Origin: a virus
Direction: 5' to 3' (one strand)
DNA length: 64,000 bases
Virus record (IMG/VR): IMGVR_UViG_3300050821_002957
Coordinates: 79,192-143,191 of that record
Shown here: positions 27,958-56,383 of the stretch, one piece after another
Numbering within the stretch: the stretch's first letter is position 1
How the letters are laid out: each line of letters starts with the position of its first letter
Made by a program: the position numbers and the translations under genes
Notes under the pieces: generated by a model
What the model was told of the DNA's origin: nothing
Database searches by the model: none
What the model saw: only the letters and a program-made list of their open reading frames with translations

Positions 27958-28032
27958 TGGAGCGGGGTACGAGAGTCGAACTCGTCTACTCTTACTTGGA
28001 AGGCAAGGGCACAGCCGCTATACCAACCCCGC
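27958..28032 (-). tRNA. tRNA-Gly (anticodon TCC)
   Basis: Manual fold. Acceptor GCGGGGT/ACCCCGC, anticodon loop CTTCCAA, T-arm ACGAG-TTCGACT-CTCGT, encoded CCA. Confidence 0.75.
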
Positions 28033-28040
28033 AATAAAAT

Positions 28041-28352
28041 CTATTTAGCACTGGACAAAACGACCGGCATCAAAGAGATTTGCCGCCAGATCGCAAGGAT
28101 ATTCCAGGCGACCAACACTAGAAATGCAATGTTGATCTTGGTCAGCTTGTTTCCTCGAAGATACCAGACGGTTCCGAAGACGATCCCAAACACTTTTACG
28201 AGAGCCAAACTGACGACCGGCGAGAACAAATGCAAAAGCATACGAACAGCCGGGTTACCTTCTTGGACGCCAATTGCAAGAAAAAGCAGAGTGGAAGCGA
28301 TGTCTGCCACCTGGAGAATCACGAAGAGCGTCAAGCTGTTCATGAGGACCAT
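28041..28352 (-). CDS. small integral membrane protein
   Basis: 103 aa with three predicted TM helices. Confidence 0.4.
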   Translation of the reverse strand: MVLMNSLTLFVILQVADIASTLLFLAIGVQEGNPAVRMLLHLFSPVVSLALVKVFGIVFGTVWYLRGNKLTKINIAFLVLVAWNILAIWRQISLMPVVLSSAK

Positions 28353-39439: not shown

Positions 39440-39790
39440 TTAATCGTAGCTCGAAAAATCTACTCGAAGCCTCTCGAACTCGATATCCTGCCACTTCAAA
39501 TTCGACAAATCCGTCATAGATTCACCGAAGCTCACATCACAATTACATGAGCATCCACCTGAGTGGCACGAAAAAACCATTCCTTCAGCATCTACACCAA
39601 TGCCTTCATAGCAATGGTGGCCGTAACCCTCGTCCCAATTGTTGATCTCTTCTACGATGACCAACTCTTTTTCAGAACCATGATCAATAAAGGTGCTCTT
39701 CGGCAACTTGCCATAGTTCTTCTTCACATACGTCTGTATCGTCATATTCGTCTGCCTCCGAATCGTCAAATAGCTTTTCGTGTACTTCAC
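39440..39790 (-). CDS. hypothetical protein
   Basis: 116-aa ORF whose 5' end overlaps the HNH gene in another frame; the true start may be at the internal ATG 39745. Confidence 0.35.
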   Translation of the reverse strand: MKYTKSYLTIRRQTNMTIQTYVKKNYGKLPKSTFIDHGSEKELVIVEEINNWDEGYGHHCYEGIGVDAEGMVFSCHSGGCSCNCDVSFGESMTDLSNLKWQDIEFERLRVDFSSYD

Positions 39791-40502
39791 CCAACTTTCT
39801 CTCCAATGCCGCTTCAGACCGGAGCCAACGAGTTTTTACTCCATGACAATTTGAACAGCGAATCCTAAGATTCTCAAGTTCATTATTCATAGGATTACTA
39901 TCAATATGATCCAACTCAAGCGGAGCCGGATATCCTCTCCAGTCACTAATTCCACAATCCTCACATTTTCTTTGCTTGATACCTTCTTGTATCAAACGTT
40001 CTCGCAAAGCCGCTGAACTTATTGTGGAACCAATACACAAATATTCTGTAATTGCTTTTCGTTTATACGGCGGTTTCTCAATAAAATGAGAATGTTCTAC
40101 CCCCAGTTCTATAACTCTACGACGCAATTTGTTAAAATTGTTATTTCCTGGCTGGATCTTAACCAACGTACACAATTCTAACCATGTCTGTGATGCAGCT
40201 ACCAATGGAACCAAATATTCCTTTGTATATTTTCTCTTCGCACCCAGTGACTTAATAAGCGCCGCATCTAGATGTTCAAAAGAAATCCCAAAAAATTTAG
40301 CACGCCCTCGAAGATAGGTATACCGAGAACCACACACCTGCACTCCCAAAACTAAGCAAACTTCACGCCACGTTTGATTGCCAGAAATTGCTCTACTCAA
40401 TTCATCAAAAGAATATTTACGATTACGTGTGTGGTAACATGGTTGACACGTTTTCGCTTTTCCTGTTGATATGATCCTCCCACAATGCTGACATGTATTC
40501 AT
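39684..40502 (-). CDS. HNH homing endonuclease (about 272 aa from ATG 40502)
   Basis: LELDHIDSNPMNNELENLRIRCSNCHGVK is an HNH motif. Track ORF 39684-40568 extends into tRNA-Leu(GAG); the internal ATG at 40502 is preferred. It sits between tRNA-Leu genes. Confidence 0.6.
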   Translation of the reverse strand: MNTCQHCGRIISTGKAKTCQPCYHTRNRKYSFDELSRAISGNQTWREVCLVLGVQVCGSRYTYLRGRAKFFGISFEHLDAALIKSLGAKRKYTKEYLVPLVAASQTWLELCTLVKIQPGNNNFNKLRRRVIELGVEHSHFIEKPPYKRKAITEYLCIGSTISSAALRERLIQEGIKQRKCEDCGISDWRGYPAPLELDHIDSNPMNNELENLRIRCSNCHGVKTRWLRSEAALERKLGEVHEKLFDDSEADEYDDTDVCEEELWQVAEEHLY

Positions 40503-40538
40503 ATCAGCATTTAGACACCTAATTTCAGATGTCAAATA

Positions 40539-40624
40539 TGGTCGCCGAGGACGGATTTGAACCGTCACGTCCTTGCGGACACTAGGCCCTCAACCTAGCG
40601 TGTCTGCCGTTTCACCACTCGGCG
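40539..40624 (-). tRNA. tRNA-Leu (anticodon GAG), type II
   Basis: Acceptor CGCCGAG/CTCGGCG, anticodon stem CTAGG/CCTAG with loop TTGAGGG, long variable arm, T-arm GACGG-TTCAAAT-CCGTC, CCA. Confidence 0.75.
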
Positions 40625-41533: not shown

Positions 41534-41659
41534 GTACTCAAACTCATTGGCTTCGGGTAATGACGACATAAATGCAGTCTTCGCCTCTCTTCGATCCCAT
41601 CAGAGTTATCCTGATGAAATGCCTCACGCCGCTTATTAGACGGCCTACATCAAACTGTG

Positions 41660-41740
41660 TAGCCAAGGAGGGACTCGAACCCTCAACCCTTGCGGGAACC
41701 GCTTCTGAGACGGCTGCGTATGCCATTCCGCCACTCGGCT
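41660..41740 (-). tRNA. tRNA-Leu (anticodon CAG), type II, no encoded CCA
   Basis: Acceptor AGCCGAG/CTTGGCT, anticodon stem GCCGT/GCGGT with loop CTCAGAA, variable arm CCCGCAAGGG, T-arm GAGGG-TTCGAGT-CCCTC. Confidence 0.65.
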
Positions 41741-41906
41741 AAAATGAAGGTTGCCCAGTCCACAATACAGGTCATACCTACAATCCCTCTAGCTTCGATA
41801 AGCGGAGCACACTTCGCTCGACGCTTGATGTCAGCCTACTTCGATTCGCACGAAGAACCCCTGAATCCAAATCAGGAAGGATACTCTTTCCCCATAGACT
41901 GAAACT

Positions 41907-41982
41907 TGGTCAGCGTGCTCAGATTTGAACTGAGAATTTACCGCCCCAAACGGCAAGTGATACCAGATTTCACCACACACTG
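41907..41982 (-). tRNA. tRNA-Pro (anticodon TGG)
   Basis: Acceptor CAGTGTG/CACGCTG, D-arm GTGA-AATCTGGTA-TCAC, anticodon stem TGCCG/CGGTA with loop TTTGGGG, T-arm CTCAG-TTCAAAT-CTGAG, CCA. Confidence 0.75.
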
Positions 41983-46407: not shown

Positions 46408-47202
46408 CTATTTAGAAAGAGCGTGTACTACTTTCTGAGGATTGACGTGATACCAACCGGAACAATGCAGACAGTTGATTTCGCCGACTTTGAGTCCTTT
46501 GTCAGTCTTAAAAATGTCAATGACGTAGCTGTCAGTAGCGAAGGGGAACTTTTCTACCATGCGTTGGGCGTAGCTGGTGACGTACCAATTCTCGTCGGCA
46601 TTGGAATACTGAATGTCACCATTGCGGACGTATTGGGAAGCTGAGACTACTTCACCGTTAATGACCCAGACTCGCCATTCATCAGTGATCGTTTTGACCG
46701 GCGCAGTGACGAACAGAGAATCGCCATTGATCGGATGCCAGTCGTGATGATGTGGATTAGAATCGTTTTCTCGATCTTCTGTAAAACCACGAACCCAATC
46801 CGGCCATGCATAGGCGTTGATAACTTTGCCTTTGATGATGTTAAATCCGGCAGCTTCACGAATATAAATTTTGCCTTGGTCTGGAACCACCAACTTGTCG
46901 AGCGGACCAACCGTCATGTCGTAGTTGATGAATTCTTCGCCAAGAGCAAGCAGGCTGGAGTATTCGTAACTTTTGTCCCAGAACACTTTCCATCCTTGTT
47001 TCATTGCATAGGCGACGAAGGATCGTGTACCAAAAGGAATCAGTTCGCTTGGTACAGTGTCGGTGAGCTTGAGATCAATCGTGGATTCCCAGAACACATA
47101 GTCGAGTTGGATACGGCGGTCGCCAGTTGCATCGATAGCGGCTGTGAATTGGTCGATCCCAAATTCGTCACCAAACATTGCATTTTGTACGAGCCAGATC
47201 AT
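46408..47202 (-). CDS. hypothetical protein, possible ATP-grasp-like C-terminal fold
   Basis: 264 aa. The C-terminus ...IDIFKTDKGLKVGEINCLHCSGWY is reminiscent of ATP-grasp, which is a weak call. Confidence 0.4.
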   Translation of the reverse strand: MIWLVQNAMFGDEFGIDQFTAAIDATGDRRIQLDYVFWESTIDLKLTDTVPSELIPFGTRSFVAYAMKQGWKVFWDKSYEYSSLLALGEEFINYDMTVGPLDKLVVPDQGKIYIREAAGFNIIKGKVINAYAWPDWVRGFTEDRENDSNPHHHDWHPINGDSLFVTAPVKTITDEWRVWVINGEVVSASQYVRNGDIQYSNADENWYVTSYAQRMVEKFPFATDSYVIDIFKTDKGLKVGEINCLHCSGWYHVNPQKVVHALSK

Positions 47203-47333
47203 AGTGGGTCCTGAGATTTTTCAATCATGTCGATATTGCAATAGGGACAGGTCGCCGGGAAATTTGTAGATTCGCACTGACAGACGGGACAGGCCGAAAG
47301 AAAGGTCTGATTGAAAGTTGATTTAGTATCCAT
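47199..47333 (-). CDS. small zinc-ribbon protein (44 aa)
   Basis: MDTKSTFNQTFLSACPVCQCESTNFPATCPYCNIDMIEKSQDPL; the C-terminal part of track ORF 47199-47585. Confidence 0.3.
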   Translation of the reverse strand: MDTKSTFNQTFLSACPVCQCESTNFPATCPYCNIDMIEKSQDPL

Positions 47334-47700
47334 TTTTGGCAATAAAGTCCAATGTATCTTTGAGTGGCGTAACCAACAGAGGATGTCCAAGAGGCGTTTC
47401 GTAAAACCCTTTGCTGATTTCCATTCGCTTGATCGGATTGTGAAGGATCTTGAAATCGCCTTCGACTGGTTTCTTATTGACCGATTCAATTTTACCACAG
47501 ACCAGACACATACGAGTTTCAGGATGCCAGTCGTCGTTGTCCCAGGAATACGAACCACCGTAGTAGGAGTGTAGAGTAACAACAACTTTGTGCGTACACT
47601 CAGCCTTAAGAGCTTCGATCTCGGCGTTCAATTCCCTAGTAAGTTTTTGCTTGAGAATTTCTTTGGTACGAATCTGCTTGGCGAGAGATTTGTAAGTCAT
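47323..47700 (-). CDS. hypothetical protein (125 aa from ATG 47700)
   Basis: Track ORF 47323-47787 is trimmed to the internal ATG MTYKSLAKQ; a CLVCGK motif is present. Confidence 0.4.
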   Translation of the reverse strand: MTYKSLAKQIRTKEILKQKLTRELNAEIEALKAECTHKVVVTLHSYYGGSYSWDNDDWHPETRMCLVCGKIESVNKKPVEGDFKILHNPIKRMEISKGFYETPLGHPLLVTPLKDTLDFIAKNGY

Positions 47701-47834: not shown

Positions 47835-48374
47835 TCACGATTGTTTGACAGGCGCAATCAGAGCGACAGCGAGTTTGCCATCTTGACGTGGAATCGATTC
47901 AGGCTTTCCAAATGGCTCCAGGTCGGCAATGAGACGTTTGAGAAGATCGTATCCAATGTTGGTATGAGCGATCTCTCGGCCACGGAACTGAACGACGGCT
48001 CGGACTTTGTTGCCGTCTTTCAGGAATTCAATTGCATGTTTCTTTTTGAAATCGTAATCGTGATCGTCAGTGTTTGGCCGGAACTTCAGTTCTTTGATGA
48101 CGGTGACGTGTTGGTGACGCTTTGCTTCTTGTTTTTTCTTTTTCTCTTCAAACAAATACTTACCGTGGTCCATAACTTTGGCGACGGGCGGCTTGGCAGT
48201 TGGAGAAATGCAGATGAGATCAAGGTTGAGTGCTCTGGCTCGTTGGATTGCTTGATTGGTTGGAAGGATGACGTTGGAGCCATCTGGGAAGATTGTCCGA
48301 ACTTCAGGAAACCGGATACCTTCGTTTACGTTATCTTTGATTTTTGGTCGTGGGGTTCTTGGTTGATATGCCAT
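47835..48374 (-). CDS. infC: translation initiation factor IF-3 homologue
   Basis: Collinear similarity to bacterial IF-3 across the N- and C-domains (INEGIRFPEVRTI...DLICISPTAKPPVAKVMDHGKYLFE...VIKELKFRPNTDDHDYDFK...FRGREIAHTNIG...). Confidence 0.7.
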   Translation of the reverse strand: MAYQPRTPRPKIKDNVNEGIRFPEVRTIFPDGSNVILPTNQAIQRARALNLDLICISPTAKPPVAKVMDHGKYLFEEKKKKQEAKRHQHVTVIKELKFRPNTDDHDYDFKKKHAIEFLKDGNKVRAVVQFRGREIAHTNIGYDLLKRLIADLEPFGKPESIPRQDGKLAVALIAPVKQS

Positions 48375-48395
48375 TAAGTGTAATTATTTAGACCT

Positions 48396-48794
48396 TTACC
48401 ACTTGATTAATAAAGTCCATTCGGTGTAGGCAGCATGAGAGTAGTCACCTTCACCACAACTGGCGGCAGTGTCCTTATATTCTGGATAGTATTTGGAAAT
48501 AAGGGCCACATGATACCCTTCGTTTTCTAGTAGTTGTCTAGCGGCAGTAGTGACAACCCGTCCATTATCATCTTTCCACCAATCAGGAGAGACTTCTAAA
48601 GATTGAAGACCTTTGCTGGCAGCTTCTTCAATTTTCTTGTGAATCTTTTCGACCATCTCTTTTGGATACTTGTCTTTCAAGTCCAATTGAAATTTTTTGG
48701 TTTCTTCTTCCCGCCTGATCCGGTCGGCCTCACTCTTTTCCCAGGCGAGTTGATTGGCTTTTTTGGTTGCGGCGGCAGCTTCTTTTGCAGTCAT
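48396..48794 (-). CDS. hypothetical protein
   Basis: 132-aa ORF. Confidence 0.4.
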   Translation of the reverse strand: MTAKEAAAATKKANQLAWEKSEADRIRREEETKKFQLDLKDKYPKEMVEKIHKKIEEAASKGLQSLEVSPDWWKDDNGRVVTTAARQLLENEGYHVALISKYYPEYKDTAASCGEGDYSHAAYTEWTLLIKW

Positions 48795-48851: not shown

Positions 48852-49358
48852 TTACTCCACCAAATCGAATGCCCAGTTTGCCGCTTGAATCGACGTATCG
48901 AGCAGACGAAGTTCTTGACTCAGGTCATCGACGAGCTTGGTAAAATAGGCCAAGCTGACACCAGGAGCCACGAGCATTTTCGGAGCGTTCTCACCGTACA
49001 TGCGGCGAGACTGATTACGCCCACGAATTTGCTCTTTGATATTTGCAAAATGTTGGATCTGCGATTTCAAGGCATCACGATGAGCAAGCGCCTGCATCAT
49101 GGTTCGTTCGCCGACCATCGTAGAATTGTTGGAAGTGTTGATGGAAACCGTCAGTGCTTCCCAACGATGAAATGCACTATGAAGAGAGATTAACAGTGCA
49201 GCAGCGTCTTCTCTTTCATCGTCATCGGCTACAAGACCGGGTAGCCCGAGACCAATCGTTGGTTCTTCAACTAATGCTGCTTCTGAAAAACGACGGTTCA
49301 GGTCTGTAATACGTGCGCCCAAGGCTTTCTTTTCGAGCAATGCTTCTGCAAGTTTCAT
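48852..49358 (-). CDS. hypothetical protein
   Basis: 168-aa ORF. Confidence 0.45.
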   Translation of the reverse strand: MKLAEALLEKKALGARITDLNRRFSEAALVEEPTIGLGLPGLVADDDEREDAAALLISLHSAFHRWEALTVSINTSNNSTMVGERTMMQALAHRDALKSQIQHFANIKEQIRGRNQSRRMYGENAPKMLVAPGVSLAYFTKLVDDLSQELRLLDTSIQAANWAFDLVE

Positions 49359-51017: not shown

Positions 51018-51094
51018 TGGTAGCGGATCTAGGAGTCGAACCTAGTATCTCAAGGTTATGAGTCTTGAATGGTTGTCCGTTCCACTCACCCGCA
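51018..51094 (-). tRNA. tRNA-Met/Ile2 (anticodon CAT)
   Basis: Anticodon stem-loop CAAGA-CTCATAA-CCTTG, T-arm CTAGG-TTCGACT-CCTAG, acceptor TGCGGGT/ATCCGCT (position 1-72 unpaired), CCA. The anticodon stem is not initiator-like. Confidence 0.65.
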
Positions 51095-55744: not shown

Positions 55745-56305
55745 CTAAACTCGTTTCACATTGCGACCAGCAAACGTTTCTGTTTGACTGTTGCAATTCG
55801 GACATAACAGCCGAAGATTGTCCAGTCTGTTATCATCCTTCACCCCATTGATATGGTCAAGCACCATCACCAACATTTTTCCGTTCCATTCCGGCTGCTG
55901 GCCACAATCACTACACTCATTCGCCAGTATACCATCTCGGATCAAACGATTTTTCAAGTGTCCTCGATTGTATGTCGATCCCTCTACCAAAACATTCAAC
56001 AATGAAACTGATCGTTCCTCAATATTCGGTACGATTCGACCACACTCAACCGACTTATACCATGATGCCGGATTCATCCCAAATTTGTTAATACACTCCC
56101 GAAAAGAAGCTCCTCTATCAATCTCTTTTTGTACAGCAGTCCAATCATATCGCTGTGCGCCATCACGACCCATAAAGACTATGGACGGATTCTCAGCATG
56201 GCGGCGTGCATGATAACTAATCGTAGATCGAGCACAACCCAATTCTTTTTCAATCTCTCGATACGAACGTCCTTCTTTCAACAACTGAATAATACGATGC
56301 TTCAT
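55745..56305 (-). CDS. HNH homing endonuclease with N-terminal helix-turn-helix
   Basis: N-terminus ...EGRSYREIEKELGCARSTISYHARRH is an HTH; the C-terminus LDHINGVKDDNRLDNLRLLCPNCNSQ is HNH. It is adjacent to tRNA-Gln. Confidence 0.6.
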   Translation of the reverse strand: MKHRIIQLLKEGRSYREIEKELGCARSTISYHARRHAENPSIVFMGRDGAQRYDWTAVQKEIDRGASFRECINKFGMNPASWYKSVECGRIVPNIEERSVSLLNVLVEGSTYNRGHLKNRLIRDGILANECSDCGQQPEWNGKMLVMVLDHINGVKDDNRLDNLRLLCPNCNSQTETFAGRNVKRV

Positions 56306-56383
56306 AATCCTATTTAGGTAGGATCAAGATTTCACCACATCATCCATACTACTTTGGTTCGACCGCCACTCACATTTTAGTTT

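What the first reader, a model, noticed from the sequence alone, without database searches (positions are those of the whole stretch)
47835..48374. Phage-encoded translation initiation factor IF-3
This is a full-length bacterial-type infC homologue with both N- and C-domain signature segments. It sits among unknown genes near the tRNA region.

Combined with the tRNA complement, this suggests the phage manipulates initiation fidelity. One possibility is that it favours its own start codons or leaderless mRNAs.
Basis: partly seen in the sequence, partly recalled or inferred. Interest (0 to 1): 0.5.

Follow-up and report, generated by a model that had tools for sequence, protein, structure and literature searches.

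The report
Jumbo-phage copy of initiation factor IF3
A roughly 400-kb soil phage carries an intact, selectively maintained copy of the bacterial translation initiation factor IF3, apparently taken from an Acidobacteria-type lineage; this kind of gene is already known in giant phages, so it is a solid but not surprising find.

Summary
ORF 47835..48374 (minus strand, 179 aa, ATG start) is a full-length IF3. It matches Pfam IF3_N and IF3_C and the NCBIfam infC equivalog at 188 bits (cut-off 60), and the predicted fold matches solved IF3 structures.

The window is part of a 404-kb T4-like jumbo phage contig with baseplate genes and at least 24 tRNAs.

The gene belongs to a well-supported clade of 28 phage IF3s. 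Its closest cellular relatives, at about 60% identity, are Bryobacterales/Terriglobia (Acidobacteriota). It has phage-like GC and dN/dS of about 0.12, so it is an old, functional acquisition.

Compared with those relatives, the phage copies lost the C-terminal tail. All 28 replaced a conserved Arg (E. coli R116) with a non-basic residue.

A CTAAATA motif of T4-late-promoter type precedes the gene in the window and three of four relatives examined (a one-base variant in the fourth), which suggests late expression.

Phage IF3 genes are already annotated or reported (GAP32, Atu_ph07, huge phages), so this is a new member of a known kind.

Canonical IF3 disfavours leaderless mRNAs. Many motif-bearing genes here look leaderless, which leaves a modest novel possibility.

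The parts
47835..48374 (-). infC-like gene, 179 aa, ATG start, full-length IF3
   Evidence: ORF list. TIGR00168 at 188 bits against a cut-off of 60. The identical protein P0001 lies on 404-405 kb contigs.
48123..48329 (-). IF3 N-terminal domain (residues 16-84)
   Evidence: PF05198 at 85.1 bits, full profile coverage. The model matches 1tif and 6o6d at rmsd 1.2-2.1 A. The tRNA-elbow residue R25 (E. coli numbering) is conserved as R26; R66 is K66, as in the acidobacterial relatives.
48102..48143 (-). Lys-rich inter-domain linker (about residues 78-91, KKKKQEAKRHQHVT)
   Evidence: Read directly from the sequence. The model shows a long helix at residues 70-87 with a pLDDT dip to 72 in residues 81-90.
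47850..48101 (-). IF3 C-terminal (30S-binding) domain (residues 92-175)
   Evidence: PF00707 at 100.9 bits. 1tig at TM 0.91, rmsd 1.5 A. R99, D106, Y107, K110, R131, R133, H137 and R147 are kept. R116 is E, R168 is K and R112 is K.
48385..48391 (-). CTAAATA motif 10 nt upstream of the IF3 ATG; a candidate T4-type late promoter (Aeh1-type)
   Evidence: The window has 13 copies, all on the minus strand, against 4.1 expected on both strands; 0 of 100 shuffles reach 13. The motif sits upstream of IF3 in L002 (+10), L087 and L088 (+32); L086 has ATAAATA at +11. CTAAATA at -12..-6 is the late promoter reported for T4-like phage Aeh1 (PMC1524935).
48852..49358 (-). Upstream neighbour, DUF6847 / DIP1984-family protein, 168 aa
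   Evidence: PF20935 at 79.8 bits. Adjacent to IF3 in L001-L003. Present elsewhere in the 375-kb and 400-kb relatives (P0167, P0158).
48396..48794 (-). Immediate upstream ORF, 132 aa, unknown function
   Evidence: No Pfam match. Weak match to phrog_5321, function unknown. Called as a gene on the contig.
47323..47700 (-). Immediate downstream ORF, 125 aa as called (the longest frame reaches 47787), unknown function
   Evidence: Gene call L001 10675-11052. No Pfam or PHROG match. Absent in L002, where the R2K gene follows IF3 directly.
46408..47202 (-). R2K-clade ATP-grasp peptide ligase, 264 aa, two genes downstream
   Evidence: PF14243 at 58.3 bits and PF18299 at 45.4 bits; phrog_7313. In L002 and L003 it overlaps the IF3 stop codon by 4 bp. 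The family is predicted to ligate peptides onto proteins (PMC4431377).
50936..51689 (-). Nearest upstream tRNA genes: Val-tac, an extra tRNA found only by Rfam, and Met/Ile2-type cat
   Evidence: The cat tRNA is not initiator-like.
41659..41982 (-). Nearest downstream tRNA genes: Leu-cag and two Pro-tgg

Best explanation
This is a working phage copy of translation initiation factor IF3.

Origin (shown by sequence comparison). The common ancestor of a clade of roughly 370-405 kb T4-like soil jumbo phages acquired it once. The source was a bacterium related to Bryobacterales/Terriglobia (Acidobacteriota). The gene has since been kept under purifying selection and recoded to phage base composition.

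Mechanism (inferred from established IF3 biology). The C-domain binds the platform of the host 30S subunit and blocks premature 50S joining. The N-domain contacts the initiator-tRNA elbow. Together they speed formation of 30S initiation complexes and check them.

Timing (inferred from motif analogy). The gene has its own CTAAATA late-promoter-type motif, the same motif found in front of baseplate genes. The phage therefore probably tops up or replaces host IF3 late in infection, when structural-protein synthesis is heaviest and host gene expression is presumably failing. This would keep free 30S subunits and initiation capacity available for phage mRNAs. It would act alongside the large phage tRNA set, which serves a 46% GC phage whose IF3 source lineage has infC genes of 58-63% GC.

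Not shown: 30S binding, activity, timing of expression, and host identity.
For: Identity and integrity:
- Both Pfam domains and the infC equivalog lie far above their cut-offs.
- The fold matches solved IF3 structures.
- Core residues are kept: R25, D106, Y107, K110, R133, H137 and R147 are invariant or nearly so across the 28 phage copies.

Selection:
- dN/dS is 0.12 between the window and L002, at dS of about 1.0.
- Bacterial relatives give 0.03-0.09.

Phage, not host contamination:
- GC is 0.47 and GC3 0.47, against 0.58-0.63 and 0.68-0.78 in the acidobacterial genes.
- The gene lies between phage genes on 370-405 kb contigs in four separate assemblies.

Origin:
- The best cellular matches in the large protein search are 60-65% identical, and those that carry names are Bryobacteraceae, Bryobacterales or Acidobacteriota.
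- 79 of the best 80 genome loci are titled as Acidobacteriota (one is labelled Bordetella).
- NJ bootstrap: phage clade 92%; phage plus Acidobacteriota against E. coli, Thermus and other phage IF3s 100%.
- The N-terminal PRxRP.I[KR]ENVNE motif is shared.

Own expression signal:
- CTAAATA lies upstream of IF3 in the window and three of the four relatives examined (L086 has the one-base variant ATAAATA), despite otherwise unrelated flanks.
- The motif is enriched and strand-specific.
- It also lies in front of baseplate genes and a tRNA gene.
- It is the late promoter reported for a T4-like phage.

Precedent:
- IF3 is annotated in GAP32, Atu_ph07, Phosso and others.
- It is discussed as supporting or redirecting translation in huge phages (PMC7162821; PMC7824862).
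Against: - There is no functional data for any phage IF3 in the papers I found.
- Every phage copy replaced the Arg at E. coli position 116. That position is Arg in 92 of 92 acidobacterial relatives, in E. coli and in Thermus. The phage residues are non-basic: E 16, D 5, N 4, Q 1, T 1, S 1. In addition, 26 of 28 have Lys for R168, and all lost the 20-35 aa C-terminal tail. The protein may therefore not behave like a plain extra dose of host IF3.
- If many late mRNAs are leaderless, extra canonical IF3 would be expected to hinder them.
- The host assignment rests on this one gene. The neighbouring DUF6847 gene gave no host signal.
Confidence: 0.6

Rival explanations
1. The phage protein is a specialised IF3 that changes start-site selection rather than just adding capacity. 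It would compete with host IF3 for the 30S platform but be more permissive, or differently selective. That would let the phage's leaderless or very short-leader late mRNAs, including its own 5-nt-leader mRNA, initiate efficiently.
For: - 11 of 27 CTAAATA sites in this phage clade are followed by an ORF start at exactly +5 or +6 nt, against 2.3% for 104 permuted heptamers (binomial p 7e-12).
- With the motif at -12..-6 (PMC1524935), +5 puts the A of ATG at +1.
- There are clade-wide non-conservative changes in the C-domain (R116 to an acidic or polar residue in 28 of 28) and in the N-domain (Y70 to H/E/Q in 27 of 28). The C-terminal tail is also lost.
- The IF3 gene has no Shine-Dalgarno sequence between the motif and the ATG in the window or in L002.
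Against: - Transcription start sites are inferred by analogy only.
- 4 of the 11 abutting starts are GTG, which is poor for leaderless initiation. At least one (46403) directly follows the upstream stop codon, so it could be translational coupling instead.
- In L087 and L088 the IF3 gene has a normal AGGAGA site and a 32-nt spacing.
- The role of R116 is recalled from the older E. coli mutagenesis literature, which I could not retrieve.
Confidence: 0.15
2. The gene is a counter-measure. It would keep ribosomes recyclable and available when the host shuts translation down (hibernation, stress responses, loss of host IF3 synthesis after host DNA or mRNA degradation), or when a defence system targets host translation factors.
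For: [quoted passage not shown]
- The region is rich in translation-support genes (24-25 tRNAs) and repair or anti-damage genes (AlkB-like, DNA ligase).
Against: - Nothing in the sequence distinguishes this from plain supplementation.
- No ribosome-rescue or hibernation-related genes were seen next to it.
Confidence: 0.15
3. IF3 works together with, or is the substrate of, the nearby R2K ATP-grasp peptide ligase. That enzyme would add amino-acid tags to the phage IF3 or to a host ribosomal or initiation component.
For: - The R2K gene lies two genes downstream in the window and overlaps the IF3 stop by 4 bp in L002 and L003.
- R2K enzymes are predicted protein-modifying ligases. The eukaryotic member CDC123 acts on the eIF2 initiation complex (PMC4431377).
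- At least six other jumbo phages carry both genes: XbC2, Kaldavass, LR756500, Phosso, Atu_ph07 and CBB.
Against: - Adjacency is limited to close relatives with 84% or more IF3 identity.
- L086-L088 have no R2K gene within 6 kb of IF3.
- In the other phages the two genes are 40 kb or more apart.
Confidence: 0.07
4. The gene is a passenger or an artefact: a host fragment mis-assembled into the contig, or a decaying pseudogene.
For: Metagenomic origin; no isolate exists.
Against: - The same gene sits in the same phage context in independent assemblies.
- Its GC is phage-like.
- 28 full-length clade members exist.
- dN/dS is 0.12.
- The upstream motif recurs in three of the four relatives (one-base variant in the fourth).
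Confidence: 0.02

Closest known systems
Bacterial IF3 (infC; TIGR00168, Pfam IF3_N + IF3_C), closest to that of Bryobacterales/Terriglobia (Acidobacteriota)
   Same: - Two-domain architecture, Lys-rich linker and fold.
- 57-63% identity to the acidobacterial proteins, including the N-terminal PRxRP.I[KR]ENVNE segment.
- ATG start, as in those bacteria.
- Conserved R25, D106, Y107, K110, R133, H137 and R147.

   Different: - Encoded by a phage, with phage GC.
- Lacks the 20-35 aa Pro/Lys/Glu-rich C-terminal tail of the acidobacterial proteins.
- R116 is E, R168 is K, Y70 is H, Q72 is K and A19 is G, as clade-wide or near clade-wide changes.
- About 1.3-4-fold higher dN/dS.
- Preceded by a phage late-promoter-type motif.

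IF3 genes of cultured jumbo phages: Rak2-like GAP32, CBB, fHe-Yen9; Atu_ph07 and Phosso; XbC2
   Same: A phage-borne IF3 in a genome above 300 kb that also carries many tRNAs; annotated as IF3 in GenBank.
   Different: - Only 32-38% identical, and several cover only about 70% of the query.
- They branch separately from this clade, so they are independent acquisitions.
- Different neighbours: ClpX-like ATPase in Atu_ph07 and Phosso, ClpS-like in GAP32.
Translation genes of metagenomic 'huge phages' (Al-Shayeb et al. 2020; soil huge phages 2025)
   Same: IF1 and IF3, ribosomal proteins and large tRNA sets have been reported and interpreted as interception or redirection of host translation. Host phylum was inferred from phylogeny of such genes (PMC7162821; PMC11748809). 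LR7565xx genomes contain IF3.
   Different: - This lineage has no nucleotide match in the phage collection, and its IF3 is at most 45% identical to those.
- Its source lineage appears acidobacterial.
- The clade-specific substitutions and the promoter motif were not described in the papers I read.
T4-family late promoters (TATAAATA; CTAAATA in Aeromonas phage Aeh1)
   Same: The same heptamer, strand-specific, upstream of structural genes in a phage with T4-like baseplate genes.
   Different: - Here the motif very often sits 5-6 nt from the start codon, implying leaderless transcripts.
- A gp55-type sigma factor was not looked for outside the window.

Membership tests
Bacterial translation initiation factor IF3 (infC) | N-terminal domain (Pfam PF05198) present and complete | tested here: met
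   85.1 bits against a cut-off of 26.9; profile positions 1-70 of 70; residues 16-84.
Bacterial translation initiation factor IF3 (infC) | C-terminal ribosome-binding domain (Pfam PF00707) present and complete | tested here: met
   100.9 bits against a cut-off of 34.8; profile positions 2-85 of 86; residues 92-175.
Bacterial translation initiation factor IF3 (infC) | Full-length match to the curated equivalog model above its trusted cut-off | tested here: met
   TIGR00168 at 188.3 bits against a cut-off of 60; positions 4-169 of 170.
Bacterial translation initiation factor IF3 (infC) | Two alpha/beta domains joined by a Lys-rich helical/flexible linker (fold) | tested here: met
   AF2 model with pLDDT 82.4 and a helix at 70-87. 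Foldseek: 5lmn_X at 5e-19; 1tig at TM 0.91; 1tif at TM 0.79; 6o6d at TM 0.86.
Bacterial translation initiation factor IF3 (infC) | Initiator-tRNA elbow contacts R25 (invariant) and R66 (E. coli numbering; PMC9723500) | tested here: met
   R26 is present in the window and in 27 of 28 clade members. Position 66 is Lys in all phage copies and in 91 of 92 acidobacterial relatives, a conservative change.
Bacterial translation initiation factor IF3 (infC) | Conserved C-domain residues D106, Y107, K110, R131, R133, H137 and R147 | tested here: met
   All are present in the window protein. All are invariant across the clade except R131, which is R in 16 and K in 12.
Bacterial translation initiation factor IF3 (infC) | Basic residues at E. 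coli R116 and R168 (recalled as 30S-binding arginines; source paper not retrievable) | tested here: not met
   Position 116 is Glu in the window and non-basic in 28 of 28 clade members, against Arg in 92 of 92 relatives. Position 168 is Lys in 26 of 28. This is a conserved position, not a formal family criterion.
Bacterial translation initiation factor IF3 (infC) | Biochemical activity: 30S binding, anti-association, start-codon and initiator-tRNA proofreading | not testable with these tools
   Needs purified protein and ribosomes, or complementation.
Bacterial translation initiation factor IF3 (infC) | Cellular operon context (thrS-infC-rpmI-rplT) and AUU-type autoregulated start, as in E. 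coli | tested here: not met
   The start is ATG, and it is conserved as MA[FY].. in relatives. The in-frame ATT upstream is not conserved in L002. No rpmI or rplT nearby. The acidobacterial infC genes also start with ATG, so this is not defining for that lineage.
T4-family late promoter | (T/C)ATAAATA/CTAAATA heptamer on the coding strand upstream of late (structural) genes | tested here: met
   13 of 13 copies lie on the coding strand against 4.1 expected. They lie upstream of gp8-like, DUF4815 virion and other genes, and of IF3. Motif identity comes from PMC1524935.
T4-family late promoter | Recognition by a gp55-type late sigma factor with gp33/gp45; mapped transcription start about 6 nt downstream | not tested
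   No gp55 homologue was sought outside the window, and there is no transcript data.

The most novel reading that the evidence does not exclude
The phage IF3 is not a spare part but a re-tuned initiation factor. It would be co-expressed from late promoters with a set of leaderless or near-leaderless late mRNAs, in which the CTAAATA motif sits 5-6 nt from the start codon. Its clade-wide loss of a conserved C-domain arginine and of the C-terminal tail would relax or redirect the usual IF3 discrimination, so that host ribosomes prefer phage late messages. A further possibility is that its activity is adjusted by the neighbouring R2K peptide ligase.
Probability: 0.12. Interest if true: 0.7.

Novelty: new member of a known kind. 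Interest (0 to 1): 0.3.

Why it matters
Virus-encoded translation factors mark how far large phages go in taking over the host's protein synthesis. None of the papers I found reports a functional test of a phage IF3.

This example is useful in three ways:
- It comes with a clear set of nearest bacterial relatives. That gives a testable host prediction (Bryobacterales-type Acidobacteria, abundant but poorly studied soil bacteria with few known phages).
- It provides a natural 'mutant series': 28 phage copies, all lacking a conserved arginine and the C-terminal tail.
- The promoter-abutting start codons, if confirmed, would make this clade a test system for how IF3 deals with leaderless mRNAs.

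As it stands, the gene itself is an expected feature of a 400-kb phage.

Tried and rejected
1. Alternative non-AUG start. An in-frame ATT lies 9 nt upstream, with AAGG 8 nt before it, which resembles E. coli infC autoregulation. I rejected it. The ATT is absent upstream in L002, while the ATG and the MA[FY] N-terminus are conserved. The acidobacterial infC genes also start with ATG.

2. Phage initiator tRNA partnering IF3. The only CAT tRNA in the window is not initiator-like.

3. DUF6847-IF3-R2K as a conserved functional module. The arrangement holds only in close relatives and not in L086-L088.

4. Second host marker. The DUF6847 search found only phage-clade relatives, then about 32% identity to Actinobacteria. 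It gave no host signal.

5. Nucleotide similarity to known phages: none. IMG/VR returned only two distant IF3 loci, at 41-47% identity.

6. Literature on which C-domain arginines bind the 30S. The relevant paper is not in the library, so that point is marked as recalled.

7. Generic sigma-70 promoter and terminator scan around the gene. Nothing exceeded chance.

8. The Biopython bootstrap timed out. I replaced it with a numpy NJ implementation.

9. The exact-sequence look-up of the 862-aa protein failed, although the gene appears in L095.

10. The infC-rpmI-rplT context in the acidobacterial loci could not be read reliably from raw ORFs in high-GC DNA.
Full report
**Observation.** Its profile matches leave no room for chance:
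- Pfam IF3_N at 85.1 bits (residues 16-84, whole profile) and IF3_C at 100.9 bits (residues 92-175).
- The NCBIfam infC equivalog TIGR00168 at 188.3 bits against a cut-off of 60, over 166 of 170 positions.
- PHROG 9787 'translation initiation factor' at E 1.7e-44.

It aligns end to end with E. coli and Thermus IF3 from solved ribosome complexes. An AlphaFold2 model built from 34 relatives has mean pLDDT 82.4. The model matches 30S-bound IF3 (5lmn_X, E 5e-19), the isolated C-domain (1tig, TM 0.91, rmsd 1.5 A) and the isolated N-domain (1tif TM 0.79; 6o6d TM 0.86).

**Setting.**
- The window is 46.1% GC.
- It carries T4-type baseplate genes (gp5-like hub, gp25, gp6, a large wedge protein, gp8-like) and a 2261-aa DUF4815 virion protein at 5.9-23 kb.
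- It also carries a DNA ligase, an AlkB-like oxygenase and HNH endonucleases.
- It has 24 tRNA genes by ARAGORN, all on the minus strand, plus one more by Rfam.
- The gp6-like protein is closest, at about 40% identity, to T4-like myoviruses of Pelagibacter, Methylophilales and cyanobacteria.
- There is no nucleotide match in the 50,697-record phage collection.
- The exact IF3 protein lies on contigs of 404-405 kb. Relatives lie on contigs of 370, 375 and 400 kb in other assemblies.

This is therefore a T4-like jumbo phage lineage known only from metagenomes.

**Origin of the gene.** In the 5.8-billion-protein search, the first 25 or so hits (65-100% identity, 176-184 aa) come from phage-like contigs. 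Below them are hundreds of 190-220 aa proteins at 60-65% identity. Those that carry names are Bryobacteraceae, Bryobacterales or Acidobacteriota. The scan of one genome per species gave 554 confirmed relatives. The best 80 are Bryobacterales, Solibacteraceae or Terriglobia MAGs, apart from one bin labelled Bordetella that is probably mislabelled. That scan is seeded by exact peptides and is therefore biased, but the unbiased search agrees with it.

A neighbour-joining tree (Kimura distances, 500 bootstraps) gives:
- the 28 phage sequences as a clade: 92%;
- phage plus Acidobacteriota against E. coli, Thermus and seven other phage IF3s: 100%;
- the sampled acidobacterial sequences as a clade excluding the phage: 97%.

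IF3s from GAP32, Atu_ph07/Phosso and the LR7565xx huge phages branch elsewhere, so phages have acquired IF3 several times. The phage gene has phage composition (GC 0.47, GC3 0.47) against 0.58-0.63 and 0.68-0.78 in the bacterial genes. Its dN/dS is 0.12 at dS of about 1. The transfer is therefore old, the gene is not a contaminating host fragment, and it is under purifying selection. Because only the top bacterial hits were sampled, I cannot say whether the phage clade nests inside Bryobacterales or is merely their sister group.

**What changed in the phage copies.** Column-by-column comparison of 28 phage and 92 acidobacterial sequences shows that the core is intact. Kept residues (E. coli numbering) are R20, R25, D106, Y107, K110, R133, E134, H137 and R147. 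R25 is the invariant initiator-tRNA elbow contact (PMC9723500).

Clade-wide differences from the bacterial relatives are:
- Loss of the 20-35 aa Pro/Lys/Glu-rich C-terminal tail. The phage tail is 1-5 residues.
- R116 replaced by a non-basic residue in 28 of 28 (E 16, D 5, N 4, Q, T, S), against Arg in 92 of 92 relatives, E. coli and Thermus.
- R168 to K in 26 of 28.
- Y70 to H, E, Q or A in 27 of 28.
- Q72 to K in 28 of 28.
- A19 to G in 28 of 28.

From memory of the E. coli mutagenesis literature, R116 and R168 are among the C-domain arginines implicated in 30S binding. I could not retrieve that paper, so this remains a lead and not a result.

**Expression signals.** The ATG start is conserved (MA[FY]...). 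An in-frame ATT upstream, which could have mimicked E. coli's autoregulated AUU start, is not conserved. The acidobacterial infC genes also start with ATG.

Ten nucleotides upstream of the ATG lies CTAAATA. The evidence that this heptamer is a functional signal is as follows:
- It occurs 13 times in the window, always on the coding strand, against 4.1 expected on both strands; 0 of 100 shuffles reach 13.
- It precedes baseplate and virion genes, a tRNA gene and several small genes.
- It precedes IF3 in three of the four phage relatives examined, with L086 carrying the one-base variant ATAAATA, even where the flanks are unrelated: L002 at +10, L087 and L088 at +32 followed by AGGAGA, and L086 with ATAAATA at +11.
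- It occurs only 8 times in 621 kb of acidobacterial DNA.
- CTAAATA at -12..-6 is the late promoter reported for the T4-like phage Aeh1, corresponding to T4's TATAAATA at -13..-6 (PMC1524935).

I therefore infer, but have not shown, that IF3 is transcribed from its own late promoter together with structural genes.

Across the window and four related loci, 11 of 27 motif copies are followed by an ORF start at exactly +5 or +6. The rate for 104 permuted heptamers is 2.3% (p 7e-12). With the published promoter geometry, those mRNAs would be leaderless or have a 1-nt leader, and the IF3 mRNA in this phage would have a leader of about 5 nt without a Shine-Dalgarno sequence.

There are caveats. Four of the eleven starts are GTG. 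At least one follows the upstream stop codon so closely that translational coupling is an alternative. No transcript ends are mapped.

'Phage-encoded full-length IF3' is correct. The step from tRNAs to initiation fidelity is not supported. The tRNAs are elongators, and the single CAT tRNA has a paired 1-72 position and the anticodon stem CUUGC/GCAAG, not the three G-C pairs that IF3 checks. Phage start codons are ordinary: 73 ATG, 5 GTG and 2 TTG of 80. About half of the genes have an SD-like 4-mer. [quoted passage not shown] The apparent leaderless late genes and the clade-specific substitutions keep a modified version of that idea alive at low probability.

**Most likely function.** The simplest reading is a functional IF3, made late in infection, that binds host 30S subunits and sustains initiation capacity and subunit availability for phage messages. 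It would complement a large tRNA set in a phage whose GC is 12-17 points below that of the bacteria closest to its IF3. I put this at about 0.6.

The rivals are:
- a re-tuned factor that alters start selection (0.15);
- a counter-measure to host translational shutdown or ribosome hibernation, as suggested for jumbo phages in PMC7824862 (0.15);
- a functional pairing with the R2K ATP-grasp ligase (0.07);
- an artefact or pseudogene (0.02).

On the R2K pairing, the ligase gene lies two genes downstream here and overlaps the IF3 stop in L002 and L003.

**Comparison with what is known.** IF3 genes are annotated in cultured jumbo phages (GAP32, CBB, fHe-Yen9, Atu_ph07, Phosso, XbC2). They have a PHROG family. 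They are discussed in Al-Shayeb et al. 2020, Iyer et al. 2021 and a 2025 study of soil huge phages. The present gene passes every sequence and fold criterion for IF3 membership; activity was not testable.

It is a new member of a known kind. What is new here is the lineage, the acidobacterial affinity, the clade-wide substitutions and the promoter arrangement. One cultured jumbo phage of Acidobacteriota exists (Tunturi 5, 309 kb, on Tunturiibacter). It shares only a distant R2K homologue with this phage and was not among the 40 listed IF3 matches (25 further records were not listed).

**Verdict.** The finding is real and well supported, and it is biologically sensible, but as a category it is already known. 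Interest is 0.3. The most novel reading not excluded is a re-tuned IF3 serving leaderless late mRNAs, at about 0.12 probability. It would be notable if true.

Noticed in passing
window, minus strand, motif 5' ends at 56317, 51955, 48391, 46415, 34986, 33655, 28048, 20628, 14351, 12749, 5757, 3498, 1618; also L002, L086, L087, L088: The CTAAATA heptamer (late-promoter type of T4-like phage Aeh1) is strongly enriched and strictly on the coding strand. In 11 of 27 copies across the clade an ORF starts exactly 5-6 nt downstream. That implies leaderless or 1-nt-leader late mRNAs in a T4-like jumbo phage.
   Followed up: partly
window 30716..33304 (-); relative at L002 20270 onward: An 862-aa protein has precomputed Pfam hits to the major vault protein shoulder domain (MVP_shoulder) and Vault_3 (weak). 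It has no PHROG match. It is conserved in the 370-kb relative.
   Followed up: no
window 46408..47202 (-): An R2K-clade ATP-grasp ligase (PF14243, PF18299) lies close to IF3. Homologues occur in 32 phage records, mostly jumbo phages, and at least six of those phages also carry IF3. A homologue in the acidobacterial jumbo phage Tunturi_5 is annotated as a ribosomal protein S6 modification enzyme.
   Followed up: partly
window 48852..49358 (-): A DUF6847/DIP1984-family protein is conserved throughout the phage clade, including the 375-kb and 400-kb relatives. Its nearest cellular relatives are only about 32% identical (Actinobacteria). Function unknown.
   Followed up: partly
L005, L006, L007, L011, L016, L019, L021 (Bryobacterales loci), about 40-90 nt upstream of infC: A conserved element ATCTGNTACNATTTGGTCAT(ATGA) lies upstream of infC in several Bryobacterales MAGs. 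It has no Rfam match and no consensus fold in a quick alifold run. It could be a promoter or a regulatory leader.
   Followed up: partly
window 51021..51094 (-): Rfam calls an additional tRNA (39.6 bits) that ARAGORN did not list. This brings the window total to 25.
   Followed up: no
window 39684..40568 (-) and 55745..56305 (-): Two related HNH endonuclease genes (phrog_10822) are interspersed among the tRNA genes. This is typical of mobile homing elements in phage tRNA regions.
   Followed up: no
L028 (CALQCC020000009.1): A MAG titled 'Bordetella parapertussis' carries a Bryobacterales-type IF3 at 61% identity to the query. This is probably a mislabelled or contaminated bin.
   Followed up: no
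window 28042..28048 (-) and tRNA-Gly 27958..28032 (-): A CTAAATA copy sits 9 nt upstream of a tRNA gene. This argues that the motif acts in transcription and not translation, and that at least some phage tRNAs are expressed with late genes.
   Followed up: no
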